From NCBI GenBank assembly GCA_964187785.1, contig OZ076409.1:8310001-8374000 (forward strand): a stretch of DNA of 64,000 nucleotides. The letters run 5' to 3'. The notes beneath the pieces were generated by a model that worked only from the letters and a program-made list of their open reading frames with translations, was not told where the DNA came from and searched no databases. The position numbers were made by a program, and so were the translations under genes. Shown piece by piece: positions 17,556 through 56,645 of the stretch. Within the stretch, counting starts at the first letter, position 1, and each line of letters begins with the position of its first letter. The DNA comes from Amphiscolops sp. MND2022 (taxonomy: Eukaryota).

Positions 17556-17565
17556 CTACTCGTCA

Positions 17566-26409: not shown

Positions 26410-27180
26410 ATTAGCTACTCTAGCGAGATGAAAGTAGTTCCACGAGAGGGACCCAGGACTGCACCATGAAACACTAACCGAACCATGCCAGTACTTTGAA
26501 CAGTTTTAGAGATATTAAAGGCCTTCTGGCTGGAAATGGGATTATACGCTCAACTTTCCGAATTTCTTACAGAAAAGACTATGATGGAGCCTGCTCTGGT
26601 TCAATTTTCATGCGCTAGATCAGAGACAATTTAAAAATGCGTTTTTCAGTGGACAAAACTTTACAGCAGCAAGAATCAGCTAAAAGGCTAAAAAGTAGCA
26701 TTTCATCATTTTGGTTAGGAAATGTTTTAAGGAGCTACTTTAGCGAGATGAAAACAGCTCCACAAAAGGAACCCATGATTGCACCCGGAAAAATAATGGT
26801 GTATCATGTTAGTTTCTCGAATGGATTCGGAGGTTTGGCTGGAAATGAGATTATAAGCTGAACCTACCAAGTTTTTTCACAGAACAAATGATGAAGCTTG
26901 CTCTGGAACAATGTTTTAGCACTGAATTATGGGCCATATACTTCGGGCATTTCTTTGAGAAAGAAATTTTACTGCATCACGAAAACTCTCCGACATATAG
27001 GCCTTAGAAAACCAAACCAGCGAAAAAGTTGCATTTGATCAATGAACATCTTTATCACAAAATTAACAAGTAGCGAACCAAGGAGCAACGTTATTTGGAT
27101 TGAACCGGTTCCACAAAAGGCTCCGGGAGTGCTTCATGAAAAAGCATAACCCATCAGGTGATTAGCTCGAATGGTTCCGA
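26410..27180. repeat. Degenerate tandem repeat, period ~320-360 bp
   Basis: AGCTACT.TAGCGAGATGAAA..AG.TCCAC.A.AGG.ACCCA.GA.TGCACC occurs at ~26412 and ~26733, with a weaker third unit near 27105. Confidence 0.6.
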
Positions 27181-28419: not shown

Positions 28420-29103
28420 TTATTTTGAAAAGGTTAGCATATTTGTTGTATGGCTCGGTCGCTTCGCTCCCTTCGCCAAGTAGCAACACTGAGGCATGGC
28501 CATATGGCACGTCGCTCCGCTTCGCTTCGCTCCTGCATTTAGGGCACTAGGGGTGTAAGAACCATGACCCATGGTATCTCTTAAATCTCCTACAGATCTT
28601 GAATCTTTCTTTGCAATTTTTATTTTAGGCCCGGGTGCGCTTTCCCTGTTCTCCTGACTATTTGGAGACGAACTGGCCTCAGTGTCCCTGTGTCCCATAG
28701 AGGACATCGAGTTTGCAATATTCTGGATTTCTGGAATAACTCTTTCAGCTATAGCTGTCGATATAGCCCCATTTATTTGGCTATGCATTATTGACATCAT
28801 AGATTCCATTTCTTGAGACAATCTAAGATTAAACTCACTTGAAAAGGCTTCAAAGGATTGCCTGACTTCGTTTTGTCTCAAAGGTTCATTTTCATGTAAG
28901 TAACCTCTAAACTCATTTTCATGGTACACATTCGTATCACCGTCCCCGTGGGCCGATGACTGATCTATTGCTTCAGCTAGCTCTCTTTCAATGGGATTGT
29001 TATTTTCATTTCCCAGCATCACATCTAGGTTATCATAGTCGGACAGTATGTCCATTTCTCTAGATCTCCTAGCTTTGGCTTTCTGTCGTCTAGTGGAAGG
29101 CAT
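28420..29103 (-). pseudogene. Duplicated Gag N-terminus in the 3' LTR, reading out into flanking DNA
   Basis: The first ~183 aa are identical to the 41459-43147 ORF. It diverges after ...GHGSY at the LTR edge (28554). Confidence 0.9.
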
Positions 29104-30113
29104 AAGAGATTATTGCAAGAGGCAAGAATTTAAATTAATATCTTGGGCTTGCAAAGTGAAAATGAACGGGTAGTTTTAATAAACAATTCGCAACAGTAAC
29201 ACATCAAAGTATCATCAGGTTAATTCTGTCTCCGAGCCCACCAGTCCCGGTTATATATATTTGAATTTGCATGACACTCAATAAAATGGTGGTCATAATC
29301 TAAAAATAGCCTTAAAGGCTTTCTAAATATAGCTACAATCTATAAATAGCAGGCAACGTCAACATTACATCATGTAGATCAAAGGTCCCTCTTGGCGGCA
29401 AATATGGCGGTGGGACCATGAGTCCGTTAGGACAAGCAACTGCTTACATGCGTACTAATCAACGTGCTACATGTATGAAATACATATTACATGTATGAAA
29501 TGCTTATTACATGTATAGATGGTAACTTTACATATATTCTAAATATATCGCGCAAATTACATATAAAGCAACACCATCAAACTAAGTCTAAAATATTAAG
29601 TCAGTCCTTTGAGGACTAATAGCGCCTTTTATTAGCTATCAAAAGATTAATTATTACATAACCAGTACTGCTAGATAGAATAGCACTCTCAATTAAAGCG
29701 CGGACTCAGTGTCCAATAGACTGGTACAGCCCAGCGCTTTATTAGCAGGCGGCATATAGCCGTCTAGTCTTTTAATTCTATTAAGCCAGCACGAGTAAAG
29801 GTTACATAACACTGCGCTATGATTGGATGACGAGTTAGTCGGACTTGCGGACCAAGGCGACAGGCAAGAAAACATTTGAACGCGTTTCCTTTACCTGTAC
29901 GCCTTGGTGTCCAATTAACTCGTATTAATGCATAGAATTACATAATATAACTTGCACAAAATGAAATATATAGAGTTTTACATGACTTTTTAGAGCAACA
30001 ATAATAGTTTTCCTTGTAAGTTTTCTAATTTAATGGAAGGGTGAAGGGTTCTGCTTTCTTGTAGCTATGGCAGATTGAGTATGTGTTGCCATCACAGGCG
30101 GACGCCTGGGACA
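28554..30113 (-). repeat. Element 1 3' LTR (1560 bp)
   Basis: Direct repeat of 42598-44157 (offset 14044). No difference was seen by eye. Confidence 0.97.
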
Positions 30114-31068
30114 CTCCCCCTGGAATAAGCATAAAGCAGCCCACCTTCATTCCTTCCAAGAAGGCTAGTCGTCTCGCATTGAACTGCTTGGCGGATTCTC
30201 CTCGGACGGACGTCTTGTGTAGATAATCTATGACCGCTTCGTCCTGAATCTGTTCCACAGATTTTCCACACACGAGACAATCTGTGCACCCTGTAATATA
30301 CGGGTTATCTGCTGCGGTCGGTCCACGGAAGTGAATACCACCTTCGTGTCGTTGGGAGCTGCCACAAGTGGCTTCCGCGGTTATCCTCCAGTCGCCCGTA
30401 GGATATTTATCAATTGCTGGGGGCGACATGGGTGTGTCGACCAACGGGATCAGTTGGCTGCACAAGTTGATTGGATGGTCGTTTCTAAGCCGTGAATCCC
30501 TCGCAATTGGTCCTCTGCCCATTCCCAGCTCAAAGTACCCAGCGTCGAACATCGGTCCCGGCACGTATGCAAGCCTGGGAGTAGTAGCTCGGGTCACTTC
30601 TTGCTTTCCTGAAGCTGAGGGGATTTGAATTCCTGCTGAAGTCGACGGCAAGTCCAGTTGTCTTTCCACACATTGGGCCAAGAGGGCCATTTCGTCGTCA
30701 TCAGACAGGCTCTCCAAGTCATCCACGGACGCCCTGCTTGCGCACTCCATGTCGTCGTCACTAGAGATGCAAATAACACCGTCTCCCGGGGCTGCTCCTT
30801 GAAAATCTTCAGGGTAATACTCAGGGGACTCTGAGTCAAATTGACTTGCAAGGAATTTATTCATTATTGCTTTTTTGGCAATCTTGGAAGTTGTTAGTTC
30901 TAGGTTTTGAAATTTGATAAGCAGCTGAATTTCGAGATTGAAACTGAAACAATGGCGATTTCTTCCTCCGTCGACTAGCGGGATTTTCTTCTCAGTTTCC
31001 CGGGGTTTTACGTCTCCCGAGAAGGATAAATTTTCAATAACAAATTCTATCTTGGTAATATCTTTCAT
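30025..31068 (-). CDS. ORF3, accessory protein of unknown function (likely start Met at 30864, ~279 aa); not env-like
   Basis: Open 347 codons. It is homologous to element 2 ORF3 (PMSPPA; CxxCG.S...I..E...DY; RGE; G.F..IP..VSQA..C.G) and has a SIM-like VICISSDDD. There is no obvious signal peptide or TM anchor. Confidence 0.8.
   Translation of the reverse strand: MKDITKIEFVIENLSFSGDVKPRETEKKIPLVDGGRNRHCFSFNLEIQLLIKFQNLELTTSKIAKKAIMNKFLASQFDSESPEYYPEDFQGAAPGDGVICISSDDDMECASRASVDDLESLSDDDEMALLAQCVERQLDLPSTSAGIQIPSASGKQEVTRATTPRLAYVPGPMFDAGYFELGMGRGPIARDSRLRNDHPINLCSQLIPLVDTPMSPPAIDKYPTGDWRITAEATCGSSQRHEGGIHFRGPTAADNPYITGCTDCLVCGKSVEQIQDEAVIDYLHKTSVRGESAKQFNARRLAFLEGMKVGCFMLIPGGVSQASACDGNTYSICHSYKKAEPFTLPLN
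30114..30121 (-). promoter_or_regulatory. Polypurine tract (AGGGGGAG)
   Basis: Purine run abutting the TG of the 3' LTR on the minus strand. Confidence 0.75.
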
Positions 31069-32138
31069 CTTTCCGTCTTGCCTTCTTTGATAACGCCGAC
31101 AACTGCCTTGTTGGCTTACATCAGTTCTGTCAACACCTCCATATTAAGAGTGCCGCTTCAAGTGTTTATTAACACTCAACAAGCACTTAAAAGATTCAAG
31201 AGGGTGAAGCTATGGCAGACGGCCACGCCGTCCATCAGCGTTTCTGATCAACCAATAGGAATGCAGCAAAATTTCTCTTGAATAAAAATGGCTTCCCAAG
31301 GTCGTAAATCCATATAAGGAATAATATAAAATGACCTGAAATTAAATAAAATCCTGGTAAAATCATGAAATATCTAATAAAATGGTAAAGTTTCGAAATA
31401 AGATAAATGGAAGAATGTAGATATTGCTGGCAGACTCTATCCACATAATAGTGTAAATTGTAAATATCTTGTAAATTTGACACCAAATTGTATAGCCACG
31501 AACTCCAACTTTGACATCTTGTCACATTGCCAATTCTCTTTTCAATTCATTATTTTCAAATTCTTTCCAGTTACTCTTTGTATTATCGTCCAGTATTTAA
31601 TCATCTCTAGTCTTTTAGTCTTCTAGTCGTATTTACTCCGTATTCATTTAAAGTAGTCATTTGTAATTTCTTCCAATTACGTCTTTTGTGGATTTCTTGG
31701 GTTATCCTAGGACAATCGACACTGAGTCCCTTTTGCTAATTCATCTTCAGCAATCTTTCTTGTCCTTCATCAAAGAAGAATTTGTCTTCTCTCTACAACT
31801 GCTGCTGTATTGTCACCAGTCCAGCTTCGTCATCCTTCTCTACTGATCGCTCAGCTTCCAATTCAGTGACCACCAGTCTAACTGTACACAGTACTCCCTT
31901 CTCAAGACATCCTTCTTTGCTTTCAAACAGGTCAGTAGCTTTTCAGGTTTTGTTTCTATTTTAGTATTGAATTAATCTGAGGCTTGATCAGGGCTCTCAT
32001 TTCATTCACGTACTTCCTGTCCCATAACACAAGTATTCACTTGAGTTCGAAATATCTACTTCCGGAAGATTTTTTAACGCGGTAATGGACTCTTTCTCAG
32101 GAAGTTATCCGCTTGAGTTTATCTCTTTCTGTTTAGAC

Positions 32139-35100
32139 ATGTCGTCCGAAGAGCAAAACGATATTGTTCCTGCCACCGCTACTACATCCATGATTGAAGA
32201 AGAAGTTGCCATCCCCAAAGAAGCTGGTACTAGTCAGGCCACTTCGATCCCTGTTGACCCTGAGTCCACGCAACTTGTGCCGCCAGGAGATGATCCTGAT
32301 AAGGCTGCTCCGACCCCAAGCCCTTCTACGGATGAAAGCATTTCCGCTTACATTGACCGTCAATTGCAGACTTTGGGTTGCCAGGGCCTTGGACTTGACA
32401 TCTCCTTCTTGCCCCCTACTACATCTGCCATTGTAGACAATGCACCAAAGTCAATCGCTGAGAAAACTTCTGAGTCGGAACCAATTCCCCAGGTCACGAC
32501 TGGGTCGCAAGACAAGGAGTCTCCTGAGGCTGAGATTGAGCGAGGCGGTGATGCTGCCAGTGAAGCTGGATTTTCCGTCACCAAGGCGGATTACTTCCAA
32601 ACTGATACCAGCGACACTGAAGAAATACTCGATAGTTCCGGTGCTGAGACCATCAAGGAACCACCTTTCGTGATTGCACTGGATGCGCTAAGCTCCACTG
32701 GGACTGAGACCCATGAGAATGTCAAGCCATCCACCTCGGCTGAGATACCTGGCACATGTTCTCCGAAGCTCTTCAGTCCAACCAGACCTTTATCTGCCTC
32801 TGCTAGAACGCTGATAAATCAGCATTTCAATGAGACCAACCCATGTATCCTCCCGGTAGGCCATGCGACTGTAGCCTTCAATCAGGGGCAAGTCCATTCC
32901 ATCTTGCGTGCCGTCTCCACGGAGACCATTACTTCTTCCCTTCATCAAATGAAGAACATGCTGGAAGAAGCGATCCGGGCAGGAATTCGCTCCCAAGGTA
33001 CTCCTCAAGGATCCGGGAAGCAGCGAATCAAGATCTTCCGTAAGCAGAGCGGCAGCCTTGGATCAGGTGCGGAAGACAGTGACGTTGGGACTGAGGGGTA
33101 CACTAGCGGAGCCCTCAGTTCGGAAGATGAGTTCGTCATCAATTCTCAGAGAACCAGCAAGGATCTGAGCATCAATCCTCCTCCAAGTCCTCCAGATCAA
33201 GGTTCGACATCAACACCTGGCCCATCGTCCGCACAGCAAGTCCCTAGTCCAGGATTCTGCTCGACTGACTATGAGCCTCTAGCCACATTGACCGCTGACC
33301 AAGCTTCTGCCTCAAGTCCACCTCGCAAACGTCGTCGGCTTCCAGTACGCACAGGCAAAGTAATGAAAGAAGCCTATTTCAAAGGAATTCAGTGGACTCG
33401 GACATTCGTCACTGGCCCCCTTGATCCAGAACACAACAAACATAAGTTCTACTGCCAGATATGTAAGACGAATGTTTCCATTTTCTCAAAAGGAGCCCGG
33501 GAGATTGTTCGCCATTTCCAGTGTGAGTCGCATTTTCGCAAAGACCAGCGCTGGAGATATGAGCACCTAAGGAAGAAGGACAAGGTGACTGGCCGGACTG
33601 TGTACGAAGTCAGGGGGAAGAAGGGCCAATTGTTGACCCCCTTGGAGCTTGAGAAAGAGAAGCCTTTCTTTATGCAAGTCCCTTTGGTCGAAACTGGCAG
33701 CAGTAACCCCTTCTACGAGGACCATATGGCTGGCCTTGGCTCCATCGCTGGGCAGGAGGAGATCAGACTGTGTGTTCAAATCTCCATGGTTGCTCTCTTC
33801 GCTCCCCGTTGTGGAGATCTAAACGTCCTTGAGTCGCTATGGTCACAGATTGGCACTGTTACCAATCATCAGAGTCTGTTCTCTCCTTACGATTGGGGCT
33901 CCTCCAAACTGACAGTAAGTATCGGCGGTTTCTAGCCTCAGGGTCCTTTAGTCCTAACGTAGACCCGACTCATTTTCATCCTGGTTGATTTTGTTTTAGA
34001 CGATCTTTCATCACATCTTCCTCTGCGGCATCGCTGACATCGCCTATCAAGTCAGTGTCACGGGTCAGTACTCTCTGGAGTTTGAAATGCGAGGCACCTA
34101 CAGCTTCATCTCGATCCGGTTCTGGAAGGGCGAATCCCTCAATGTCGTCCGTTTGCTACGATACCGGACTGCTTCAGAGCCTGCAGCTGGTTTCCTGTTG
34201 GTACTTTCCCGCCTCTTGTCCGTCCTATCAACGCAACCTCAGATTGTGAGCGTGTCCGGGTGTCCTGCAGAGGTGATTCCTCTTCTTGAACGTTCTTGCC
34301 TCTTCCAAAAAGGGATTGAGTACCCTTTCCGATTTGATGCTCTTTGTCTGCCAGACCTGATGCATGAACGATGGGGCAGCGTGTTTGGCAGTATCAGCTT
34401 CTTCTCTCAGTTGAAGTTTCTGATTACCTTCCTGGACGGTTGCGGTGGACAGCCCTGGGCCGCCCTGATGCCAGAATTCGTCAAGGTAAGGTCACTGTCC
34501 GTAAGACTGTAGGTCCAGTTTTGAATTGCCTCCAATAAGCATGTTGATTGTAGGCGATGACTACCTATCACCTGGAGATTGCCGCTGTACCAGCCATATG
34601 TTCGGAACTAATTGCGAACTGGAAGTCTGTGCACCAACATCTGACGAAGATAGCACCACCACAGGTCCACCAGGGGGTCAAAAACAAGCCCCAAAGCCTC
34701 GAGTGGGAAATCATAGCTGATGATTTCTTCACCATCAAGCTGGAGTTCTTCGCACGAATTGTCCGCGATTGTTAGTATATTGTTTTTTCTCTTGTCTACG
34801 GACCTCATGGTCCCAGTTTGTCTTACCACTATTTGAGGCTCATGCTAGATATAGTAGATTGACATGCTAGGTCTAATGGTTTCATAAAGACCCTTCAGGA
34901 TGGTAATGTTTTGTTTTCCAGACACCAAGAGCTTCGAGAGTCAGTTTGCGCAACGAAGGGATAGTGGCTTCTACACCTTCCGAGAGTTCCATACTTTCAT
35001 TCGCAAGTTGGCAGGTCGAGCACTACTTCCCAGACACGTGCCTGATATTCTGGACTGGAAGTCGCTGGGAGATTTGCAAGGACAGAATTGGCGACAACTG

Positions 35101-36072
35101 TCTAATCGAGATTTCTTGAGTCGCTTGAAGCTCAAAGAAAATTTGGATGCCGCATGCCATGCTCGCGTCAGGAGAATTTATAACGAGAAGCAACTGACGC
35201 CTGAAGAGACGGAGACAGCAGCTGAGGCCCTTCGGGACGATTTCGCCACCAAGGCCCGAGGTTACCTCGTCCACCTTTTGAAAGTCTTCCTGGCCGACAT
35301 TAGCTTGAATGCCCGTATCGTAAGAGGTCTGGGCAGTTTCGATCCAGTAGCCCTCCTGAGTCTGCCGCTTGAGCAAGCCACATACTGTTTCTCCGCTCTG
35401 TACAGATCCTTTAGTTTGCGAGGCTGGTTAGAGAATTCCCCAGAGACTGATGCCCGAGACGAGTACATCGATTTCGTGGAGTTCTTCCGCCAAGCCAACT
35501 CTGGAGTCAAGGATACCCCAGAGGTCTTCACCGACATGGTAGCCTTTCTGATTGGTATGCCTGAATTGAAGTTGCGGAAACATCTGTTCTACATCTTCCA
35601 GTTGAGTTGTCTGTGCCTGACTTCTAAGTTGCCAGAGCTTCCAGCCATCAAATTCTCTGGAGTTGACTGTAATGATCCCCGAAGTAGACTTTTCGATGTC
35701 ATCATGCCTGCACAGTCTTACCTAGCTAATGTGGCTAATTCAGTGGCTGTGTGCACTACAGAAGCTTCCCTGGGCACCTTCAAAGATCTGGAGTTCCGAT
35801 TCAGTATTGGCAACGTCCCAGGAGACCCTTGGTCACACGTAGACAGTTTCGGCAAGGCTAATTTGCATAAAACTTTAATTGCAGTCTACAAGGCTCTGGG
35901 CAAGAGTGTCCGTCCTGACATCGAGTCCGCTTCCAATTCCTCGTCCAAAGAAGGGGGGAAACAACGTAAGCTGTCCCCTGGTAAAGGCAAGAAAGTTGGC
36001 TTTCGGGCAGCTGGTGAGACTGAAGCCGCAAAGTCCAGTGATGCAAACGCTCCTGGAACTTCTAAATCTTAA
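32139..36072 (+). CDS. Spliced antisense gene, ~1209 aa: disordered N-terminus, NLS, BED/TTF-type zinc finger, inactivated hAT-transposase-like body. Coding exons 32139-33914, 34000-34485, 34554-34770, 34922-36072
   Basis: Three GT-AG introns join four ORFs in frame with no stops: 33915-33999 (GTAAGT..TTTTAG, phase 0), 34486-34553 (GTAAGG..TTGTAG, phase 0) and 34771-34921 (GTTAGT..TTTCCAG, phase 1). Motifs include W...FYCQICKTNVSI...G..EI.RH....SH and PPRKRRR. Confidence 0.88.
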
Positions 36073-36308: not shown

Positions 36309-39300
36309 CTAGTATCTGTATTCATCAGTAAAGTTGGGGGTAGGGTTAGGTCGAAGATTGTATTTCCCTCCTCTAGGGCTCGAATTTTCATTTGAATTTC
36401 CATTTTTTGATATTCCGGGCACGGTAATATCTGCGCCTTTGTTTGAAACGTTTTCCGTATCTTGTAAATCATTAGTGACGTCATTTTCATTCTCAGTGCG
36501 CTGTGACGTTTGAGTCGGGGGGGACGGTTCGTCACTGCTATTGTTCTCTCTCGGGGATATTTCGTCCTCGGTAACGTCATATTCTGTCGTACGCTCATTG
36601 TAACTTTCATTGCTGACGCGTTCGTTCTCGGTGACGTAATTTCTTGTCGTGCGCTCGCTGCAGCTTTCATTGATAGTTCTTTCCTCGTCGGTAACGTCAT
36701 TGTCCGTATTAGTGGACTCGGCGTCCGTCGGCCGGCGTGTGGCCACGTCTGTCCAATTTTCCTTCCTCGGTTCAAATAAGTCGTACTCAAAGTCTACTTC
36801 CCATGAGATAGTGTACAAATCGTCTTGCGGGATTACTATCTCATTGTCGGGTTGTAGTTTTTCTCCATCGTATTTGTCCTCTAAAGGGGCATTCGGGACG
36901 AATTTCTTTAGTCTAATGCGATGAAGTATTTGAGTTTTATTTGTATTTAGACGACGGACAATATAATTGTCGTTGGACAGTACTTTTTGAATGACGAATG
37001 GTCCAATCCACCTGTATTCCTTGAATGGAATTTTTGATGCTTGACTGTCCGCTTTAGGTTGTAGAACAAAACAATAGTCCTTTTCTTTAAGCGGGGCAGC
37101 CTTTGCCTTTCGGTCGTAATAGTCCTTATATTTCAAATAAGACTGCATGATGTTCTTTTTCGTTTGATCTATGAGGATTTGTGTCCTCTGCTGTACTTCC
37201 TCCGCAAATTCTGTAGTTGGCAAAAAATTTTTATTGGGGTTATTTCCCAATTTGTGGTCTAGGACGTTATAGGGAATCCGGCCGTGGAAGACTTTACTCG
37301 GTTCGCATCCAATACTAGAGTGGTATGTGGTATTGTAGTTGAGTACTGCTAATGGTAAATATTTATGCCATTGGCGTCGATATTCCCCTGAGGCCATTTT
37401 CAAATTTGTTTTGAGTGAGGCATGCGTCCTTTCGAGTTTGCCAATTGTTTGCGGGTGCTTTGTAGTAGCACATTTGAGTGTTATACCCAAAATTTGAGTT
37501 ATCTCAGCTATGATGGTCGATGTAAATGCGGACCCTTTGTCTGTGATGAGAGTTGTTGGTAAATATGAATGTTTCGTCATGATATCAATTATCACCTTGG
37601 CTACATTCGTGGCTGTTGCCTCAATTAGCGGGTAGGCGAATAAGTACCTTGAGAATACATCTATAGCTGTCATCACCGTCTGGTATCCGCCACTAGTCGG
37701 TAAGTTTGGTAATAAGTCTATCTGCATGGCATCTTCTGGACCAAGGTCCCATTCGGGCAAGTTCAACAATTCTGGTGTAATTGTATTATTTGGGACTCTT
37801 TTGTCTCTAGCGCACGTTTCGCATCCCTCTACCCATTTTTTAACGTATTTTGCTATGCCAGGGTAGTAATATTTTTGGCGGATCTCTTGCAGCATTTTAG
37901 AGATGCCAGGATGTCGATGTGCCGTGCCATGTATTGCTTGCAGTAGTTCTTTCAACAGGTGCTTTGGTAGTAAGATTTGGTGGTATTTGATTTGTCCCGT
38001 TTCGTCGTAATACTGTCGGGTCACTATTTCGTCCTTGAGGACTATACGGTCTAAATTATTTAAATAATGTTTATACCGGCTGTCCTGCTGAAGGATTTCC
38101 TCAGAGTATTCTTCATTTTGAATTTTTGCTTTTAAATGAAGCAAAATCGGATCTTTGGATTGTTCTAGTAGTATTTGGTTGGTTCTACGTAGTTTCTGGG
38201 TGAAATTGGTAATTTCATCCACTACATTTTCAGATATAGTATCTATTTGGATGACGGTCTCGTCGACCTTGAGTCCTGCTTTTGATTGTCTTTTCCTTTC
38301 CCAAATTTGTTCTTCTGTTTCATTGTCTTCTTCGGTAAAGAACACTTGTTCTTCTTCAGACACGCCGGCTGATTGGACATTGACTTCAATGGGTTGGGTT
38401 TCAACGTCCGCTCGGATTTTTAGGACTAACTTTTCAGTGGGGTCCATTTCCATGCGGGACAGGTAGTCCGCCGCTGTGTTGTTTTTGCCTGGAATGTGCG
38501 CTATAGTGAAATTGAACTGAATGACAAAGTCACACGCGTTCCATAATGGCGGCGGTATTATTTTAGTCTGGAAGAACCTTGTGACCGATTTGTTATCTGT
38601 GAGGATAATCACCGGCTTAGGTGTGCCCCAGAATATATGTCCAAATTCTTTGAAGGCGTAATAGATGGCTAAGAATTCCTTCGCATAAATTGACATTTTA
38701 AGTTGTGAAGGAGTAAAAGTTTTTGAACCATATGCAATAGGCGCATAGGATTTCTTGGTTGAGGTAAATTTCTGATTTGGATCATCTTCAGTAAGTATAG
38801 CATATCCGGCTGCTGTAAAGCTAGCATCTGTCATCAGGACTAGCTGTCGATTTGGCAAGGGCTGCCTAAGGGCCAGCTGGGTGCATCTGTCCAAATCTCT
38901 ATTGATCTCGTTGAATTGTTCGATCAGTTCCGTTGTGACTAAGACCTTTTCGTCTTTCTTTAATAGTTGAAAGAAAGGGACTAATTTTTCTGATAACCTC
39001 GGTATGTAGTTTCTATAATAATTAAGGAATCCGAGGTAACGTTGTAAGGCTTTTTTGGATTTTGGGAATTTCGTTTTTTCTAGGAATTGTGTGACTCGTT
39101 CCTTCTGGGGCTTGACACCCTCAGGGGTGATTGTCCTTCCTAAGAAATCAATCTCAGTTGCTCCAAAGTGGCATTTATGCATCGTTAATTTCAATCCAGC
39201 CTCTCGGATGCATTCGAAAGTTGCTCTGAGATTTTTAATGAGATGCTCCGCGTCGTTGGCTGCAATGCCAATATCGTCCACGTATTGGGCACATTGATCG

Positions 39301-41456
39301 GCTTTGATGACACGGTCCAAATATTCTCTCATAAAACTGGAGAATGCCGATAAGGCTCTGCTGAGACCTTGGGCCAATCTTCGATATGCGAACGTTCGGC
39401 TGGCAAAGTTGAAGGCCAACATCTCTATAGACCGTTGGTCCGCCATTTGAAGGCAGTGGTACGCTTGCGAACAGTCAAGTTTACAGAAAAGTTTCTTTCC
39501 GGCCATATGTTGAGCAGCGTCCGTTAAGGTGCTGACTGGATGGTTGTTGTTGATATAATCATCAGAAATAAGATTGTTGATCTTCCTGAGGTCTACCAGT
39601 AGTCGTAGTTTCCCATTAGGCTTCTTTTGTGCAAAGATAGGGCTAGCGTACTTTGAGAATGGTAATGTTGTTATAATTCCATATTTGTGTAGTGACGCTA
39701 ATTCGACCAGTATGTCCTCTTTTAAATTGACCGGAGTTGGTAAGCTCTGGCTGTAGGCAGGAGAGTCGTCCTTTGGGGTCAATTTGACCGTGAACTCCTC
39801 ATTCATACCGATGTCAAACCTATGACGGGCAAATATGTCGTGAAATTCGACTAATAGCGCTTCTATCTGTTTGATTTCATGCTGTTGTAGCATTGAGTCC
39901 TTCCAGTCAAAGTTACTGAGGAATTTTTGTCGAGATTCTTCATTGTCTTGTGGGTTGAGTTTTTCTGCTTCTTGCAGGTTTCGTAATTCTCTAAGAATTC
40001 TCTTTTGTATTGGAGTATGGGACTCTTCGTCCCCTGGGTTTTCGGGTGTTGGAAACCAGTATTGTTCGTATTGGTCATTGTTCCTGTTGGCTTTGAGAAG
40101 ACTGCTGATATAATAAATAGCGTCTTCTTCATTTTCATTGAGTAGGTGCCAAGTGGACACTGGGTCTATTGGCCTAACGTGCTTCATTTGCTCTGGAGTC
40201 ATCACAGAGAAATTCGCTATGTGCATCCCTTTTTTGAGTTTAAAGGGCTGATCAGTGAAGTTGTTGACATGGATCCTCGTAGTCCCTTCGTCCAATGTGA
40301 CTATGGCGGCACAAAATGTTATATCATTTTCTTCATTTAGAAGGTCACTGGGTTGTAAGATTCCAGTGACAGCGTTTTCTGCATAAATTTGAGATTGGAT
40401 AGGGATGATTGTGCGTCCATTTGGGGGAATCGTTATATCCTCGGGGTTGAGGATGGGTTCCATCACATTGGAGTACTTATGGTCAGCTGTTTTCAATTGC
40501 ATCGAGAAGAAGGGAAAGTTAAGTATGCCTTGGCGCATATCTAGGACTGTGTGGTTTCTTTGTAAGAACATAAGTCCGATTATGGGGCTGGATAATTTTT
40601 CCATCACTATGAAGATTTCGTGGAACTCTATGTCCCCTACTTCGAACTTCAGTTCTACTGTACTCTTCGGAGTTTCCAGGTCTCCATTGGCGACCATAAT
40701 TTGGAATGACGGGGCAGGACCCTCTTTCACTATTGATTGGGGTGCAAGTAGCCGTATTTTCCTAAGGTCAGCTTCTGGTATCGCACTGGAGTGGGCCCCA
40801 GTGTCTATGAGACCATCTAATGTTAGTTCTCCAAAGTCCATTGGGAAATATAGCATCCTCCTTTTGATTTTGAGGCCAAGGTTGGTGGAGAGGGGAACGT
40901 ATGACGGTTCTCCTTGTTTTTCCACTAAAATGTGCAAGAAGGCTGTTTCGTCTAAAAGGCTATCGGGGCCTTGAAAGTCTTCTTGTTCTTGAGTTTCCTC
41001 TATTTCTTCTAAAAGTGCTTCGGAATTTGGCTGCCAAAGTTCAATGAGGGCTCTGGATAGTTTATTGTCCACTATCGGGGGATCATCCTCATCGTCCGTT
41101 GGTGGATATTCGTCTTGTCTAAACTGGAGTTTTTGTCTGTCGTAGAGTTCGTCGTCCCAATACGGGTCTTTGCCGTAATCAGGATCGAGGTATTGAGGGT
41201 GATAATCTTCGATCAGGGGTAAGGGACGGAATTGAGTCTCGAAGTCTTTAGTATAGTCTATTTCGTAAAATCGGTCTGGGCGATCATTATGTACTATTTT
41301 ATAAGTTCGGATACAGGCTTTTTCCATTTGTTGCTGCCAGACAACAGTGGGAATTCCTTTTGTATCCTTGATTATTTGGCTGTATTTGATTATTGGAGGA
41401 TCTGAAATGACATATTGTCGAACCGACATGTAGTCATGTATTTGGAGTCGTGGCAA
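36309..41456 (-). CDS. pol: Pol polyprotein (protease, dUTPase-like spacer, RT, RNase H, integrase), translated by -1 frameshift from gag
   Basis: LIDTGA (protease), KLDCSQAY/YVDD (RT), TDAS...ADYLSR (RNase H), H..AH.HPG...CETC, QIDLL/TDKGSAF/LERTH (integrase) and WIGPF (GPY/F motif). Confidence 0.97.
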   Translation of the reverse strand: MPRLQIHDYMSVRQYVISDPPIIKYSQIIKDTKGIPTVVWQQQMEKACIRTYKIVHNDRPDRFYEIDYTKDFETQFRPLPLIEDYHPQYLDPDYGKDPYWDDELYDRQKLQFRQDEYPPTDDEDDPPIVDNKLSRALIELWQPNSEALLEEIEETQEQEDFQGPDSLLDETAFLHILVEKQGEPSYVPLSTNLGLKIKRRMLYFPMDFGELTLDGLIDTGAHSSAIPEADLRKIRLLAPQSIVKEGPAPSFQIMVANGDLETPKSTVELKFEVGDIEFHEIFIVMEKLSSPIIGLMFLQRNHTVLDMRQGILNFPFFSMQLKTADHKYSNVMEPILNPEDITIPPNGRTIIPIQSQIYAENAVTGILQPSDLLNEENDITFCAAIVTLDEGTTRIHVNNFTDQPFKLKKGMHIANFSVMTPEQMKHVRPIDPVSTWHLLNENEEDAIYYISSLLKANRNNDQYEQYWFPTPENPGDEESHTPIQKRILRELRNLQEAEKLNPQDNEESRQKFLSNFDWKDSMLQQHEIKQIEALLVEFHDIFARHRFDIGMNEEFTVKLTPKDDSPAYSQSLPTPVNLKEDILVELASLHKYGIITTLPFSKYASPIFAQKKPNGKLRLLVDLRKINNLISDDYINNNHPVSTLTDAAQHMAGKKLFCKLDCSQAYHCLQMADQRSIEMLAFNFASRTFAYRRLAQGLSRALSAFSSFMREYLDRVIKADQCAQYVDDIGIAANDAEHLIKNLRATFECIREAGLKLTMHKCHFGATEIDFLGRTITPEGVKPQKERVTQFLEKTKFPKSKKALQRYLGFLNYYRNYIPRLSEKLVPFFQLLKKDEKVLVTTELIEQFNEINRDLDRCTQLALRQPLPNRQLVLMTDASFTAAGYAILTEDDPNQKFTSTKKSYAPIAYGSKTFTPSQLKMSIYAKEFLAIYYAFKEFGHIFWGTPKPVIILTDNKSVTRFFQTKIIPPPLWNACDFVIQFNFTIAHIPGKNNTAADYLSRMEMDPTEKLVLKIRADVETQPIEVNVQSAGVSEEEQVFFTEEDNETEEQIWERKRQSKAGLKVDETVIQIDTISENVVDEITNFTQKLRRTNQILLEQSKDPILLHLKAKIQNEEYSEEILQQDSRYKHYLNNLDRIVLKDEIVTRQYYDETGQIKYHQILLPKHLLKELLQAIHGTAHRHPGISKMLQEIRQKYYYPGIAKYVKKWVEGCETCARDKRVPNNTITPELLNLPEWDLGPEDAMQIDLLPNLPTSGGYQTVMTAIDVFSRYLFAYPLIEATATNVAKVIIDIMTKHSYLPTTLITDKGSAFTSTIIAEITQILGITLKCATTKHPQTIGKLERTHASLKTNLKMASGEYRRQWHKYLPLAVLNYNTTYHSSIGCEPSKVFHGRIPYNVLDHKLGNNPNKNFLPTTEFAEEVQQRTQILIDQTKKNIMQSYLKYKDYYDRKAKAAPLKEKDYCFVLQPKADSQASKIPFKEYRWIGPFVIQKVLSNDNYIVRRLNTNKTQILHRIRLKKFVPNAPLEDKYDGEKLQPDNEIVIPQDDLYTISWEVDFEYDLFEPRKENWTDVATRRPTDAESTNTDNDVTDEERTINESCSERTTRNYVTENERVSNESYNERTTEYDVTEDEISPRENNSSDEPSPPTQTSQRTENENDVTNDLQDTENVSNKGADITVPGISKNGNSNENSSPRGGKYNLRPNPTPNFTDEYRY

Positions 41457-41458
41457 AA

Positions 41459-43147
41459 TTAGTTTTTTGAATCAGATTTTTTAGTATTGGATTGGCTTGA
41501 AGTAGCCGTTTCTGAGTCATTTGCTTTTTTAGGCTTTCCTTCGGAGTCTATAGCATTTCGGTCATTTTGTTCTGTCTGCATCCTTTTGGGTCGCAGGTGG
41601 GCGCCAGCGCCTTGCCAGCATCTTTCGGTTGGGTGGTTCTTTTTGCCACATGTGTCACACGGTGGGTAAGTTGGACGTTGAGGTTTTTTACCGTCTTTGT
41701 CCTCCATTTCCTTTTTCTTCTTGAGTTTCGGGCAGTTTTTGTAATAATGACCTGTCGCTTTGCAGTATGAGCATTGGGCGTCTTTATTTGTGTTGATACC
41801 ATTAGACAATAAGTTGTTATGGCTCGTGGACGCCGAGGCCATAGTGGCCATTGGTAGATCATCTGACTCTTCTAATGCATTGAGTTCCAGTTCTCTTTCA
41901 AGATGAGCTACTATTTCTTCATACGTGCCATTCTCCAGACGGGCCATGTTGACAGATCGTTTCAGTTTTGGGGGTAATTTCGCGTATAACAAGCTGTCGA
42001 TCATGCTTTTAGCGTTTTCCCCAAATGCTTTTTCTGCACCTTGGTTTAGTTCTTCCAAGAAGTCTGGTAGTTTCATTGTACTTGGGTCGAAGGTTAATCG
42101 GTGCCATTTATGCTTTGCTGTTGCTTGTGATTCCGGTTTGACATATTTCCTCCGGAATATGACCAGTACGTCCTCGAGAGTTTGACGGTTGATTGAGTTT
42201 ATGTTCCTGAATGTCTGTAATGCTCCCTTTCGTAGCAAAGAATGAAAGTGATTAATTTTCATTTGTTCTGTCATTGTGGGCTGCATTTTGATCATCGTAT
42301 GGAACAAGTCCTCAAAGAGCTCAAATTTCTCACTTTTCCCATCAAATGTCATCGGGGTTGTTTGTACGGGTCTGATTGTCATAGATTGCGGTTTGTTTTG
42401 CAAATTGACCAATACGTCGGCTAATCTATTAAACGGGTCCTGAGGAGGTTCAGGAGCCTCTGGGGCCGGGGCTGGCAGAGTCGTGTCCAGAGAGATATTG
42501 TGGGTAGATTGTTGTCTCTCTAGGTTCGGGATTGAGTGGATTCGTCCGGTCAGAAATTCGGGAATTTGCGGTTGGGTGTCGGTAGCTCCTGTCACCATGT
42601 AAGAACCATGACCCATGGTATCTCTTAAATCTCCTACAGATCTTGAATCTTTCTTTGCAATTTTTATTTTAGGCCCGGGTGCGCTTTCCCTGTTCTCCTG
42701 ACTATTTGGAGACGAACTGGCCTCAGTGTCCCTGTGTCCCATAGAGGACATCGAGTTTGCAATATTCTGGATTTCTGGAATAACTCTTTCAGCTATAGCT
42801 GTCGATATAGCCCCATTTATTTGGCTATGCATTATTGACATCATAGATTCCATTTCTTGAGACAATCTAAGATTAAACTCACTTGAAAAGGCTTCAAAGG
42901 ATTGCCTGACTTCGTTTTGTCTCAAAGGTTCATTTTCATGTAAGTAACCTCTAAACTCATTTTCATGGTACACATTCGTATCACCGTCCCCGTGGGCCGA
43001 TGACTGATCTATTGCTTCAGCTAGCTCTCTTTCAATGGGATTGTTATTTTCATTTCCCAGCATCACATCTAGGTTATCATAGTCGGACAGTATGTCCATT
43101 TCTCTAGATCTCCTAGCTTTGGCTTTCTGTCGTCTAGTGGAAGGCAT
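41459..43147 (-). CDS. gag: Gag (562 aa) with two zinc knuckles; starts inside the 5' LTR
   Basis: Capsid-like TFDGKSEKFELFEDLF region, with CSYCKATGHYYKNC and CDTCGKKNHPTERC knuckles. Confidence 0.95.
   Translation of the reverse strand: MPSTRRQKAKARRSREMDILSDYDNLDVMLGNENNNPIERELAEAIDQSSAHGDGDTNVYHENEFRGYLHENEPLRQNEVRQSFEAFSSEFNLRLSQEMESMMSIMHSQINGAISTAIAERVIPEIQNIANSMSSMGHRDTEASSSPNSQENRESAPGPKIKIAKKDSRSVGDLRDTMGHGSYMVTGATDTQPQIPEFLTGRIHSIPNLERQQSTHNISLDTTLPAPAPEAPEPPQDPFNRLADVLVNLQNKPQSMTIRPVQTTPMTFDGKSEKFELFEDLFHTMIKMQPTMTEQMKINHFHSLLRKGALQTFRNINSINRQTLEDVLVIFRRKYVKPESQATAKHKWHRLTFDPSTMKLPDFLEELNQGAEKAFGENAKSMIDSLLYAKLPPKLKRSVNMARLENGTYEEIVAHLERELELNALEESDDLPMATMASASTSHNNLLSNGINTNKDAQCSYCKATGHYYKNCPKLKKKKEMEDKDGKKPQRPTYPPCDTCGKKNHPTERCWQGAGAHLRPKRMQTEQNDRNAIDSEGKPKKANDSETATSSQSNTKKSDSKN
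41462..41468 (-). promoter_or_regulatory. -1 ribosomal frameshift heptamer A AAA AAC
   Basis: TCA AAA AAC TAA lies at the gag end, and the -1 frame continues K-L-I-L-P-R-L-Q into pol. The identical heptamer is present in element 2. Confidence 0.85.
42586..42597 (-). promoter_or_regulatory. Primer-binding site TGGTGACAGGAG (tRNA-Leu-like, inferred)
   Basis: It begins with TGG directly after the LTR CA. The identical 12-mer follows the element 2 LTR. It is one mismatch from the TGGTGTCAGGAG Leu-type PBS. Confidence 0.8.
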
Positions 43148-44157
43148 AAGAGATTATTGCAAGAGGCAAGAATTTAAATTAATATCTTGGGCTTGCAAAG
43201 TGAAAATGAACGGGTAGTTTTAATAAACAATTCGCAACAGTAACACATCAAAGTATCATCAGGTTAATTCTGTCTCCGAGCCCACCAGTCCCGGTTATAT
43301 ATATTTGAATTTGCATGACACTCAATAAAATGGTGGTCATAATCTAAAAATAGCCTTAAAGGCTTTCTAAATATAGCTACAATCTATAAATAGCAGGCAA
43401 CGTCAACATTACATCATGTAGATCAAAGGTCCCTCTTGGCGGCAAATATGGCGGTGGGACCATGAGTCCGTTAGGACAAGCAACTGCTTACATGCGTACT
43501 AATCAACGTGCTACATGTATGAAATACATATTACATGTATGAAATGCTTATTACATGTATAGATGGTAACTTTACATATATTCTAAATATATCGCGCAAA
43601 TTACATATAAAGCAACACCATCAAACTAAGTCTAAAATATTAAGTCAGTCCTTTGAGGACTAATAGCGCCTTTTATTAGCTATCAAAAGATTAATTATTA
43701 CATAACCAGTACTGCTAGATAGAATAGCACTCTCAATTAAAGCGCGGACTCAGTGTCCAATAGACTGGTACAGCCCAGCGCTTTATTAGCAGGCGGCATA
43801 TAGCCGTCTAGTCTTTTAATTCTATTAAGCCAGCACGAGTAAAGGTTACATAACACTGCGCTATGATTGGATGACGAGTTAGTCGGACTTGCGGACCAAG
43901 GCGACAGGCAAGAAAACATTTGAACGCGTTTCCTTTACCTGTACGCCTTGGTGTCCAATTAACTCGTATTAATGCATAGAATTACATAATATAACTTGCA
44001 CAAAATGAAATATATAGAGTTTTACATGACTTTTTAGAGCAACAATAATAGTTTTCCTTGTAAGTTTTCTAATTTAATGGAAGGGTGAAGGGTTCTGCTT
44101 TCTTGTAGCTATGGCAGATTGAGTATGTGTTGCCATCACAGGCGGACGCCTGGGACA
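42598..44157 (-). repeat. Element 1 5' LTR (1560 bp)
   Basis: TGTCCCAGG...GGTTCTTACA on the minus strand; repeat of 28554-30113. Confidence 0.97.
43295..43325 (-). promoter_or_regulatory. Putative LTR core promoter: TTGAGTGTCA + 12 nt + TATATATA
   Basis: The same two motifs with the same 12-nt spacing occur at 48619-48648 in the otherwise unalignable element 2 LTR. The site is ~150 nt upstream of the gag ATG. Confidence 0.6.
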
Positions 44158-47119: not shown

Positions 47120-49272
47120 TGTCGCAGGCTGCCGCCTGCAATGGAACAATCATCACGACATCAGCAGACGGACAAAACATCGCACCAGGAATGCTTCCTA
47201 CATTTTATTGTTAAAACTGAAAATTAACCAATCACAGTGCAGTATAGCTAGTATTATTTTTCAGTAATACATTATTTGGCCGGTTATGGCCGCTTGCCTT
47301 AATCTAACTACTATGCTCGCACACGCTGGTCCAATGTCCGGTTCCGGCCTATTTAGCTTTCATCAAGTAGTATGTGCTATTTAATCAGTAGTGCTGTGTA
47401 TTTTCTTAGAAAGTACTTGAAGCTGTCTTAATACGTCAGATGCAATGATTAAAAGTGTTAGGAGAAGAATTGCTAATTGTTTTAATTATAGTTGCTATTG
47501 ATAAAAACCTGTACCAGAAACGTCATTTGAGCACGCGGCCTTGTCCAATCAAATTACTCCATTTGCTACGCAGTTAATACTTCCATTCATTAATGGCCGA
47601 ATAAGGCCTGTGGACATAACTTCGCTGCTTTTAATAAATATTCAGTCAAACGGCCGGTTCCGGCCATTTCACATAAAGTGCAATTGTGATGCTAATTGTT
47701 CCCACACTTAACCAGGATTCATGTGCTTGTACTCTTAGGCTAAATAACCCCTCTAGTGCAGTAATATCTAACTTTATCCCAAACTTAGCTCTTTCAAACG
47801 GTTAAGGCCGTTTTACCAGTATTTAATAATGATTACTTAGTACGGGGCAATTAGCCTATTCAGGCCAGATTGTGTAAAGTGCTGTACACATTTTTAATTG
47901 ATTGGCCGTATTGACACTTGACATTATATTAGATTGGTAATGCAGGACAAAAGGCAGATGGCCGGTTTAGGCCATTTTGCCTATTATCATTAGAGATGCT
48001 TTTAAGCATGAATGAGTTTGTTGTACAGTCATGTAAGAATATATTTATATACTTGAAGATGTTAATGAGCTTTTTAAATCCAATTAGTGCAATAATAACG
48101 ACCAGTAGTAGCAATCCCAATACCCGTCACCTGTCCTTTTCCGGCCTTCGCTATTGGCCAGCTTCCAAGTCCAATGGCCGTATCGGGCCATATTACTATA
48201 TTATGTTCATTTCTATTGCATGAAACTGTGTCTTTGTTTTGTTGATTCTACGCACGTGTGTTGGCACGTGACGCTAAATAGTTTACATTCCTCTCACTGT
48301 AAACAATTTGAAAGTATTAGTTTTGACGTTTGGTCAAAGTGTTGTTTGCCTTATATAATAAGGCTAAATTCCTCCGCTTCCCTTTGATGATAGTATTTGC
48401 AGTTAAAAATGCACTTGAGTGCATTCCATATTTTATGTAAACTTTAAATGATGTTGCTGCGAATGAATTAGGTATGAATGCCCTTTGACCCTAACGGGAC
48501 AAATTCCTAAAGGGTTTTGATGTAGTTGACGCCGCTAAAAACGAATGAATGTTAGTGGTCACCCGCCGTAGTCACGTGCCATTTATGAAATCTGTAAATA
48601 GATTGTTATGCAAGGAATTTGAGTGTCACCCTCTCAGGGGTATATATATTAGTATTTTTCCCGAGAGCGACACAATTGTATTTTGCTTCTCCAAGTTTAG
48701 TTTGACATACCTGTTTACGATATAATGTACAAAATCCTAATTTCCGAACAAGATAATTCACTATTTTCGCTCGGACTTTCTCCAATGCATATTCAAAGAA
48801 AGAGGAGAAAGCTTAGACAGGAATCTTGCTAGAAGGCCCGAAAGTGCCATTAGCAATAACTTTGGAAATGACGATGAAAAAATGTACTCAAGTCTACGAG
48901 TTGTCAGTACAGGGATAAATGCCGATTACGGCCAGAATTCAGTCGGTACTAATTCTAATGCTGAGATTAACAGATTGTTGAGCGAGTTGAACTCGATGAT
49001 ATCTAGAGAATTAGATGGGATGATGAGTAGTGTCAATACCCAGATCCAAAGGGCAATTAGTGATGCAATTGATAGTCAAATATTGCCTCAGATTCAAACT
49101 GCCCTATATTCCGGATCAGGCCATTTGACACAAAATAGATGGAACGTTCCGTCCGAGAGACCGGAAATTAATCCCGAAGAAAAGTGCTCTAAGAAAACTA
49201 GGAAAAACTCAAGAAGTGAGCAATTCCGTGATCGTCCAATTGACGGAACCACAAATGCTAGTGCTTACGACA
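47120..49272 (+). repeat. Element 2 5' LTR (2153 bp)
   Basis: TGTCGCAGG...CTTACGACA. It repeats 56551-58697 with scattered substitutions and small indels. Confidence 0.95.
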
Positions 49273-55841: not shown

Positions 55842-56645
55842 ATGGAAAAGAATATAGCAAGGAGACTCTTCGAAGAGAATGACTTCGACTCTGAAACTAC
55901 GAGTGATTCTGTGATCTACATCTCCACTGACGAGAGCGAAGGGATGTCAGAAGAATGGGACTCGGACTGGTCAACTAACACCTAGGACATGATCAAGAGG
56001 ATCGAGACAGAGGTGGTATCCAGCCCAAAGCTGATAGCTGGGAGAATAATGACTTCTAACAGTCATGAGGACTTGATTATGATCCCAGGGCCCAGCTCTA
56101 GTAGGACAGATGTGGAATCGACCCCTAAACTGGGTAAGCAGTATTTTGATAAAACTCTTTGTTACGCCCCCGCCAAAGAATATGCCAAGAAGAGGATCGA
56201 ACTCTGTAAGACGGTCATACCTGTGGATGACTCGCCCATGTCGCCACCCGCCCATGAGAGAGGGCCTGTGTTGGAAACGATGTTGGCCCCGTTGCCACAA
56301 CCGGCTAATTCTGGGTTCCGTGTTTCATACCATGTGCAAGACACGGTGCCTTACGAGAACGTCAGCAAGAAGATGTACAGAAGCTGCATCGTTTGTGGGA
56401 GATCAGCTGACGCTATCAAGAGGGAGAAGGCAGATGACTATATAAGGAGATCAACACCAAGAGGTGAGCCGGCCTACGTCACAGCAATGAGGAAGGAAGC
56501 TTATTTGAATGGACTGAATGCAGGGTTGTTTTTATTTATTCCACCCGCAGTGTCGCAGGCTGCCTCCTGCAATGGAACAATCATCACGACATCAGCAGAC
56601 GGACAAAACATCGCACCAGGAACGCTTCCTACATTTTATTGTTAA
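55842..56645 (+). pseudogene. ORF3 homologue with one in-frame stop (TAG at 55983); ends inside the 3' LTR
   Basis: MEKNIARRLFEENDFDSETTSDSVIYISTDESEG...* then the 55989-56645 ORF in the same frame, with motifs shared with 30025-31068. Confidence 0.8.

What the first reader, a model, noticed from the sequence alone, without database searches (positions are those of the whole stretch)
30025..30864. Conserved non-env ORF3 with SUMO-interaction-like motif that runs through the PPT into the LTR
Seen: both elements encode a ~270-280 aa protein with an acidic N-terminus carrying VICISSDDD / VIYISTDES, then PMSPPA, then a conserved CxxCG...RGE...IP..VSQA..C domain. The LTR TG boundary falls inside the Val codon of VSQA in both, so the last ~30 codons are LTR sequence. 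Established: V/I-x-V/I-V/I plus an acidic or Ser tail is the SIM consensus, and SUMO is used in transposon silencing. Inference: this may be a nuclear anti-silencing or regulatory factor occupying the env position.
Basis: partly seen in the sequence, partly recalled or inferred. Interest (0 to 1): 0.7.

Follow-up and report, generated by a model that had tools for sequence, protein, structure and literature searches.

The report
Retrotransposon accessory protein with SUMO-binding-like motif
A large family of jumping genes carries an extra, unnamed protein where an envelope gene would normally sit; it looks like a soluble two-copy protein with a SUMO-binding-like tail, which could help the element resist the host's silencing, but that role is untested.

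Summary
ORF3 is real. In element 1 (Ty3/gypsy, 28554-44157, identical LTRs) it is an intact 279-aa gene whose last 29 codons lie in the 3' LTR, the boundary falling in the Val codon of VSQA. Element 2's copy is not intact (stop at codon 48) and has no purine tract at the boundary. The protein heads a large unnamed family (238 clusters at 90%, 503 at 50%), with no hydrophobic segment of membrane-anchor strength in element 1 and no Pfam hit: not Env. The boundary codon is V/L/M in 254 of 258 relatives, never Ile, so the LTR overlap is family-wide. Anatomy: acidic N-terminus with a phospho-SIM-like motif (14 of 24 divergent representatives; 0.6% in shuffles), then a CxxCG knuckle and helical hairpin predicted to homodimerise. 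It sits head-to-head with a second, spliced antisense zinc-finger gene that also belongs to the element. Best reading: a trans-acting nuclear dimer that binds SUMO and shields or boosts the element (0.4); rivals are a Tas-like transactivator, a CERV/Rev-like export factor, or an integration adaptor. SUMO binding, expression and localisation are untested.

The parts
30025..30864 (-). E1 ORF3, 279 aa, intact accessory gene
30751..30777 (-). Phospho-SIM-like motif VICISSDDD (residues 30-38)
   Evidence: SIM and CK2 consensus recalled
30655..30702 (-). Predicted amphipathic helix (residues 55-70) in the acidic N-terminal region
   Evidence: (pLDDT about 55-60)
30418..30474 (-). Conserved P-I-x-x-C135 ... 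D-T-P-x-S-P-P block (residues 131-149)
   Evidence: C135 76 of 79, S147 and P148 88 of 92
30265..30279 (-). CxxCG knuckle (residues 196-200), candidate zinc site with C257 and C135 or H178
   Evidence: C196 118 of 123, C199 119 of 126, C257 120 of 126; zinc binding inferred
30142..30258 (-). Helical hairpin (residues 203-241), predicted homodimer interface around Y214, A234, G238
30114..30121 (-). Short purine tract abutting the 3' LTR, read as P-G-G in ORF3
28554..30113 (-). E1 3' LTR (1560 nt, 100% identical to the 5' LTR); starts inside the Val251 codon
30095..30108 (-). Inverted repeat of 5-nt arms with 4-nt spacer at the LTR start, inside the Q-A-x-A-C codons
30865..32084 (.). Head-to-head spacer between ORF3 and the antisense gene; candidate internal two-way promoter (inferred)
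31494..31512 (-). 19-nt motif identical in E1 and E2 (55218-55236), about 610-650 nt upstream of both ORF3 starts
   Evidence: 2 matches, 0.06 expected
32085..36072 (+). Antisense gene of E1, four predicted exons (32085-33914, 34000-34485, 34554-34770, 34922-36072), about 1227 aa, C2H2-type finger and basic NLS-like stretch
36309..41471 (-). E1 pol: protease, dUTPase-like, RT, RNase H, integrase
41459..43147 (-). E1 gag; first 183 codons lie inside the 5' LTR, PBS lies in its frame
42598..44157 (-). E1 5' LTR; 5-bp target-site duplication flanks the element
47120..49272 (+). E2 5' LTR (97.4% identical to its 3' LTR)
55842..56645 (+). E2 ORF3, 267 codons, interrupted by a stop at codon 48
56551..58697 (+). 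E2 3' LTR; starts inside the Val codon of VSQA; no purine tract before it

Best explanation
ORF3 is an old, selected accessory gene of a complex Ty3/gypsy lineage (layout LTR/gag - pol - antisense zinc-finger gene - spacer - ORF3/LTR). Shown: it is a conserved, soluble-looking protein whose reading frame overlaps the LTR start throughout the family. Predicted: its C-terminal knuckle plus helical hairpin forms a homodimer. Inferred: it is made from its own mRNA out of the spacer, enters the nucleus, and the dimer presents two acidic, CK2-tunable SIMs that bind SUMOylated chromatin factors, competing with or diverting SUMO-dependent recruitment of the H3K9 silencing machinery at the element. It acts in trans, so deleted subfamilies such as E2 can spread without it.
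For: Family size and standalone length. SIM-like 4-residue core with S-S/D-acidic tail in 14 of 24 representatives at <60% identity, a shorter core in 4 more, against 0.6% in composition shuffles; no such motif in gag, pol, the two antisense ORFs or 120 antisense homologs; two of the six negatives show a SIM-like motif outside the scanned stretch (P0333, P0341, read by eye). S34 is Ser in 53 of 53 aligned representatives. Third codon positions far more diverged than first and second (E1-E2 0.47/0.51/0.30 over 246 codons; E1-L001 0.53/0.66/0.32 over 217). Homodimer model scored 0.34 against best control 0.00 (mark reached by 21 of 30 solved pairs and 0 of 23 single chains in microbes; in eukaryotes 17 of 29, animals 7 of 16, only 1 of 7 without an older solved relative, 0 of 30 single chains; runs agree in at least 30% of contacts; pLDDT at least 43); its core residues Y214, A234, G238 are 87-94% conserved although the alignment was not used. 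SUMO-SIM contacts recruit SetDB1/Wde in piRNA silencing (10.1101/533091, passages); CK2 phosphorylation raises SIM affinity (PMC4276917, passages).
Against: No SUMO-binding, localisation or expression data. Four of 24 representatives (P0230, P0231, P0232, P0252) have no SIM-like hydrophobic core, though three keep S-S-D, so the acidic or phospho tail may be the conserved thing. Classical NLS pattern in only 2 of 24. E2's subfamily appears to have spread with the SIM cut off from the rest. SIM-like motifs are short and acidic regions with hydrophobic patches also typify activation domains (recalled). Dimer model has low pLDDT (43-49); interface residues are only modestly more conserved than the rest of the hairpin (0.59 vs 0.45, p=0.024), as buried residues would be anyway. 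A broad SUMO decoy would harm the host germline; known TE anti-silencers are narrow (PMC6719617, passages). dS is saturated, so no dN/dS value could be given.
Confidence: 0.4

Rival explanations
1. A Tas/Tat-like transactivator: the dimer binds a site in the element (the LTR-start inverted repeat or the 19-nt spacer motif) and the acidic N-terminus with its amphipathic helix recruits co-activators; the SIM-like motif is part of the activation domain.
For: Acidic disordered N-terminus (net -15 in 70 residues) with a helix at 55-70; predicted dimer; inverted repeat at the LTR start in E1, E2's 5' LTR and L001, with a compensating V254/T256 pair in 6 of 7 Val254 sequences; 19-nt motif shared by E1 and E2; head-to-head layout suggests an internal promoter, as for foamy virus Tas (recalled).
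Against: Protein is acidic overall (pI 4.6) with few basic residues; the antisense protein has the zinc finger and NLS-like stretch (106 of 120) and is the better DNA binder; 16 sequences (T254/A256) break the repeat and the V/T pair may be one event.
Confidence: 0.2
2. A Rev/CERV-like factor that binds element RNA in the nucleus and promotes export or blocks splicing of the genomic RNA.
For: CERV of Cer1 is a nuclear, phosphorylated, Cys-rich, multimerising accessory protein with a helix-hairpin-helix (PMC10309623, abstract and section 9); ORF3 has a hairpin with conserved R231/R232 and a conserved S-P-P block.
Against: No sequence match to CERV was tested or seen; the basic patch is small; CERV shares exons with gag, ORF3 does not.
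Confidence: 0.12
3. An adaptor for integration or nuclear entry: it rides with the pre-integration complex and uses the SIM to dock on SUMO-rich chromatin or pores.
For: SIM-like motif plus dimer would give a bivalent tether; no chromodomain was found in this pol.
Against: No evidence of contact with integrase or Gag; nothing known of insertion preference here.
Confidence: 0.12
4. The most striking motif (VSQAAACDG) is conserved mainly for DNA reasons (LTR end, attachment site, inverted repeat), and the protein is a weakly constrained passenger.
For: Residue 251 is limited to residues with xTG codons: V 218, L 34, M 2, I 0 of 258, against V 170, I 84 at residue 198 (p=1e-13 on 126 representatives); V254/T256 covariation restores the repeat.
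Against: C196, C199, E223, A234, G238 lie upstream of the LTR and are 93-97% conserved; the P-G-T-L-P end, about 70 nt into the LTR, is kept with in-frame length changes; third positions are saturated. So this explains a few columns only.
Confidence: 0.05
5. A divergent envelope or small fusogenic protein.
For: Position 3' of pol, next to the LTR.
Against: Highest 19-residue hydropathy 1.44 in E1, above 1.6 in 2 of 106 relatives; acidic N-terminus, no signal-like stretch; 279 aa; no env family among Pfam hits.
Confidence: 0.03

Closest known systems
Non-env ORF3s of bdelloid Juno/Vesta LTR retrotransposons (PMC5408684, abstract and first part of Results read)
   Same: Invertebrate Ty3/gypsy-type elements with dUTPase between protease and RT and a non-envelope ORF3.
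   Different: Those ORF3s are GDSL esterases, DEDDy exonucleases or TM proteins; this one matches no Pfam family, overlaps the LTR and has an antisense partner gene.
HIV-1 nef (PMC11076291, passages read)
   Same: Accessory ORF that contains the PPT and att site and overlaps U3 of the 3' LTR.
   Different: Layout analogy only; no sequence similarity was found; Nef is a membrane-associated adaptor of a vertebrate retrovirus (recalled).
CERV of C. elegans Cer1 (PMC10309623, abstract and section 9 read)
   Same: Gypsy-encoded, orphan, Cys-rich, helical hairpin, predicted multimer, regulatory.
   Different: 517 aa, shares exons with gag, has a G-like domain; no SIM in the parts read.
Retand antisense ORFs (PMC11963269, passages read)
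   Same: Several kb between pol and 3' LTR holding an antisense gene with likely DNA-binding role.
   Different: Plant lineage, TRP28 domain; here the antisense gene is spliced and a conserved sense ORF3 follows it.
VANC anti-silencing proteins of VANDAL (PMC6719617, passages read)
   Same: Transposon accessory protein proposed to counter host silencing in trans.
   Different: Plant DNA transposon, DNA demethylation, function shown; here function is inferred.
Foamy virus Tas/Bel (recalled, no call)
   Same: About 300 aa acidic regulator 3' of the structural genes, made from an internal promoter; neighbouring bel2 overlaps U3.
   Different: No similarity tested; the internal promoter here is only inferred.

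Membership tests
Ty3/gypsy LTR retrotransposon (host element) | pol order protease-RT-RNase H-integrase | tested here: met
Ty3/gypsy LTR retrotransposon (host element) | TG..CA LTRs, PBS, target-site duplication | tested here: met
   both elements, 5-bp duplications
Ty3/gypsy LTR retrotransposon (host element) | Purine tract abutting the 3' LTR | tested here: inconclusive
   8 purines in E1, purine-rich in L001, absent in E2
Ty3/gypsy LTR retrotransposon (host element) | RT phylogeny to a named clade | not tested
   no reference RT set at hand
Envelope glycoprotein | Signal peptide and transmembrane anchor | tested here: not met
   hydropathy scan only: max 1.44; SignalP and TMHMM not available
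Envelope glycoprotein | Sequence match to an env family | tested here: not met
   0 Pfam families for E1 ORF3 at E<=1; no env family among 19 weak hits for 124 members
Phospho-SIM proteins | Hydrophobic core V/I-x-V/I-V/I or V/I-V/I-x-V/I/L followed by Ser and acidic residues (consensus recalled) | tested here: met
   E1 residues 30-38; 14 of 24 representatives, shuffles 0.6%
Phospho-SIM proteins | Motif lies in a disordered region | tested here: met
   pLDDT under 50 for residues 1-51; low confidence is only a proxy
Phospho-SIM proteins | Binds SUMO | not testable with these tools
   no host SUMO sequence was available to the complex tool
Rev/CERV-type export factors | RNA binding and export of genomic RNA | not testable with these tools
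   needs experiment
Rev/CERV-type export factors | Shared fold | tested here: inconclusive
   fold searches matched only a generic hairpin, best Z 4.9, rmsd 2.6, 45 aligned
TE anti-silencing factors (VANC-like) | Lifts silencing of cognate elements in trans | not testable with these tools
   needs experiment

The most novel reading that the evidence does not exclude
An animal LTR retrotransposon lineage with a two-gene counter-silencing module under one two-way promoter: the antisense zinc-finger protein finds the element's own DNA and the ORF3 dimer, through paired phospho-SIMs, blocks SUMO-dependent heterochromatin formation there. It would be an animal TE-encoded antagonist of the SUMO step of piRNA-type silencing and could help explain the lineage's expansion to many hundreds of copies.
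Probability: 0.15. Interest if true: 0.9.

Novelty: new variant of a known kind. Interest (0 to 1): 0.6.

Why it matters
[quoted passage not shown] A small, soluble, strongly conserved retrotransposon protein with a phospho-SIM-like motif is a directly testable candidate. Whatever its function, it is an unnamed protein family in a retrotransposon with a complex-retrovirus-like layout: two accessory genes head-to-head, and both ends of the LTR coding.

Tried and rejected
No whole genome was held for this window, so no genome-wide copy survey or within-family dN/dS. RNA runs: none was listed; no evidence either way; read laying not used. Viral contigs: 0 of 54 candidate stretches for ORF3, 0 of 3 for RT. 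Metagenomes: 1 of 298 (L001, 1275 nt). ESM Atlas: no usable hit for ORF3 130-279; only scores up to 0.76 for antisense exon 4. PDB sequence searches: best E 0.63 for ORF3, 0.65 and 2 for the antisense gene. Fold searches: no Foldseek hit at E<=0.001, no chain at Z>=5 of 48161; this shows neither a new fold nor absence of relatives. Weak rows I set aside as generic: Deadlock N-terminal hairpin (5xyv_D, E 4.0) and RPB10-type CxxCG-plus-helix rows (E>=1.7). First structure model too poor (mean pLDDT 50.8). The E2 rows were out of frame by one base and were redone. Idea that the antisense gene is a nested DNA transposon: rejected; no terminal repeats, its cluster has 112 members against 128 for ORF3, and E2 keeps its start (score 71, 0 of 200 shuffles as high) and probably its end (63, 1 of 200). 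My first impression that it is a BED/hAT transposase was recall and found no database support. RNA hairpin at the LTR start: strong in L001 (z -4.5), not in E1 or E2 (z -1.3 to -1.7). No tRNA gene in the window to name the primer. Earlier scan notes: nothing.

Full report
Setting. The window holds two Ty3/gypsy elements. E1 (minus strand, 28554-44157) has 1560-nt LTRs that are 100% identical, a 5-bp target-site duplication, and open gag and pol; pol runs protease, dUTPase-like, RT, RNase H, integrase. E2 (plus strand, 47120-58697) has LTRs 97.4% identical; its pol is in several frames and lacks a match to E1 pol residues 1104-1661, most of the integrase. The host is not given. From memory I guess an acoel worm; that was not tested.

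Observation. E1 ORF3 is an intact 279-aa frame at 30025-30864 with the motifs named. The 3' LTR begins at 30113 within the Val251 codon, and 29 codons including the stop are LTR sequence. E2 has the same motifs and the same boundary (56551), but its 267-codon frame has a stop at codon 48. Of the 15 listed members of E2's 30-member cluster none extends upstream of codon 50 and five start there, so the break is probably inherited in that subfamily. A purine tract precedes the LTR in E1 (8 nt) but not in E2.

Family. A single-sequence search gave 69 clusters, a profile 238 clusters at 90% among 3163 candidates (best 120 listed, all from ENA, none named, none with Pfam), and the full HMMER scan 503 representatives at 50%, 273 of them at E<=1e-10; the best 150 were listed, the longest 455 aa. 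Several clusters have more than 100 members (128, 138, 163, 136, 105). These records come without DNA context, so their link to LTR elements is inferred, not seen. One indirect test supports it: the boundary residue is V 218, L 34, M 2, other 4 and Ile 0 among the 258 of 386 sequences that cover the domain, while the comparable column 198 is V 170, I 84 (p=1e-13 on 126 representatives at 90%). V, L and M are the residues with xTG codons, so the LTR's TG seems fixed in this codon across the family. The tail from it to the stop is mostly 28-33 residues. The one outside DNA locus, L001, shows the same LTR-start sequence at that place.

Selection. Only three DNA copies were available. Synonymous sites are saturated (pS 0.74 and 0.77, pN 0.52 and 0.41); identity by codon position is 0.47/0.51/0.30 for E1-E2 over 246 codons and 0.53/0.66/0.32 for E1-L001 over 217. 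The part inside the LTR shows the same pattern (0.59/0.59/0.33, 27 codons). Aligning by protein favours this pattern somewhat, but the non-coding LTR parts of E1 and E2 do not align at all. This is long-term constraint on the protein; no dN/dS value can be quoted.

Anatomy. Residues 1-70 are acidic (net -15) and there is no membrane-strength segment (max hydropathy 1.44; above 1.6 in 2 of 106 relatives). Among 24 representatives at <60% identity, drawn from 152 full-length of 385 proteins, 14 have a four-residue SIM-like core with Ser/acidic tail, 4 a shorter core, 6 none in the scanned stretch; shuffles give 0.6%. Two of the six have a SIM-like motif elsewhere (by eye); four lack the core, three of them keeping S-S-D. 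The SIM and CK2 consensus are recalled; PMC4276917 (passages) states that CK2 phosphorylation raises SIM affinity for SUMO. C135, C196, C199, C257 are 94-96% conserved and H178 77%, suggesting one zinc site (inference). With a 124-sequence alignment AlphaFold gives a confident knuckle and hairpin (pLDDT 86-96 over about residues 195-234, mean 67.9). A two-copy model of residues 125-279 with zinc scored 0.34 against a best control of 0.00; the mark was reached by 21 of 30 solved pairs and 0 of 23 single chains in microbes, by 17 of 29 eukaryotic pairs (animals 7 of 16; 1 of 7 without an older relative) and 0 of 30 single chains; runs agree in at least 30% of contacts and pLDDT is at least 43. 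The closest contacts are at A234, G238 and Y214, 87-94% conserved. This supports a dimer; it does not show one.

Neighbourhood. ORF3 is 5.4 kb from pol. Between them lies an opposite-strand gene at 32085-36072 that reads open over four exons with GT-AG introns (about 1227 aa), has a weak C2H2 finger match in 34 of 37 aligned members and a basic NLS-like stretch in 106 of 120 homologs. Its cluster has 112 members, and E2 keeps its start and probably its end, so it belongs to the element. It and ORF3 start head-to-head 1.2 kb apart; in that spacer a 19-nt motif is identical in E1 and E2. An internal two-way promoter is the simplest reading (inference). At the LTR start the codons Q-A-x-A-C contain a short inverted repeat; V254 pairs with T256 in 6 of 7 cases, which restores it, but 16 sequences break it.

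Mechanism. I commit to a trans-acting nuclear dimer whose two phospho-SIMs bind SUMOylated chromatin factors and blunt silencing of the element (0.4). Shown: gene, conservation, motif, overlap, non-env character. Predicted: hairpin and dimer. Inferred: expression route, nuclear entry, SUMO binding, effect. Background: SetDB1/Wde is recruited by SIM-SUMO contacts in piRNA silencing (10.1101/533091, passages). Against: no NLS pattern in 22 of 24, SIM core missing in 4 of 24, the E2 subfamily's break, and no functional data. Rivals: transactivator 0.2, RNA export factor 0.12, integration adaptor 0.12, DNA-driven conservation 0.05, Env 0.03.

Comparison and novelty. Each layout feature has a precedent: non-env ORF3 and dUTPase in rotifer elements (PMC5408684, abstract and first part of Results), nef over PPT and U3 (PMC11076291, passages), antisense ORFs in Retand (PMC11963269, passages), a regulatory orphan in Cer1 (PMC10309623, abstract and section 9). 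The protein family itself matched nothing named. Searches for it in print: 'retrotransposon-encoded' with 'SUMO-interacting motif' gave 0 papers; 'SUMO-interacting motif', 'transposon', 'anti-silencing' gave 1, a Daxx/HIRA review seen only as a listing; one search listed 13, of which I opened three; PMC13524379 has no mention of acoels in its main text. PMC9911081 (passages) says LTR elements make up half of one acoel genome, relevant only if my host guess holds. 10.1101/2021.07.27.453956 (passages) added nothing. No supplements were read; repeat libraries in supplements, Repbase or Dfam may already list these elements. Verdict: new variant of a known kind, interest 0.6.

Noticed in passing
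window 32085-36072 (+): Spliced antisense gene (four predicted exons, about 1227 aa) inside the retrotransposon; introns would survive reverse transcription because they are on the opposite strand. 173 homolog clusters, none named among the 120 listed.
   Followed up: partly
window 42598-43147 (-) and 48741-49272 (+): gag starts deep inside the 5' LTR (183 codons in E1); the PBS lies in the gag frame and the LTR/PBS junction itself forms an in-frame ATG in both elements.
   Followed up: partly
window 56536-56550: E2 has no purine tract before the 3' LTR; the matching residues are T/A/P-P-A in 20 of 126 representatives, which cannot be coded by a purine run, so an abundant subfamily may prime plus strands unusually.
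   Followed up: partly
window 31494-31512 and 55218-55236: Identical 19-nt motif in otherwise unalignable spacers, with a second weaker match 72 nt further on in both.
   Followed up: partly
window 31235-31546 (-) and about 55200-55520 (+): A 103-codon stop-to-stop frame with a hydrophobic end covers the 19-nt motif in E1; E2 has a similar but interrupted reading. Coding status unclear.
   Followed up: no
window 17375-20420 (+): An 895-codon RT frame with a PHD finger inserted in it, flanked by 181-nt direct repeats; looks Penelope-like (class recalled).
   Followed up: no
window about 40200-40445 (-): dUTPase-like domain between protease and RT in pol.
   Followed up: no
window 47120-58697: E2 lacks most of integrase and of the antisense gene, yet its ORF3 cluster has 30 members: probably a non-autonomous subfamily.
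   Followed up: partly
window 2100-16100 and 24300-27700: Many short dispersed and inverted repeats of 60-660 nt, including a near-perfect 166-nt palindrome at 15956-16121.
   Followed up: no
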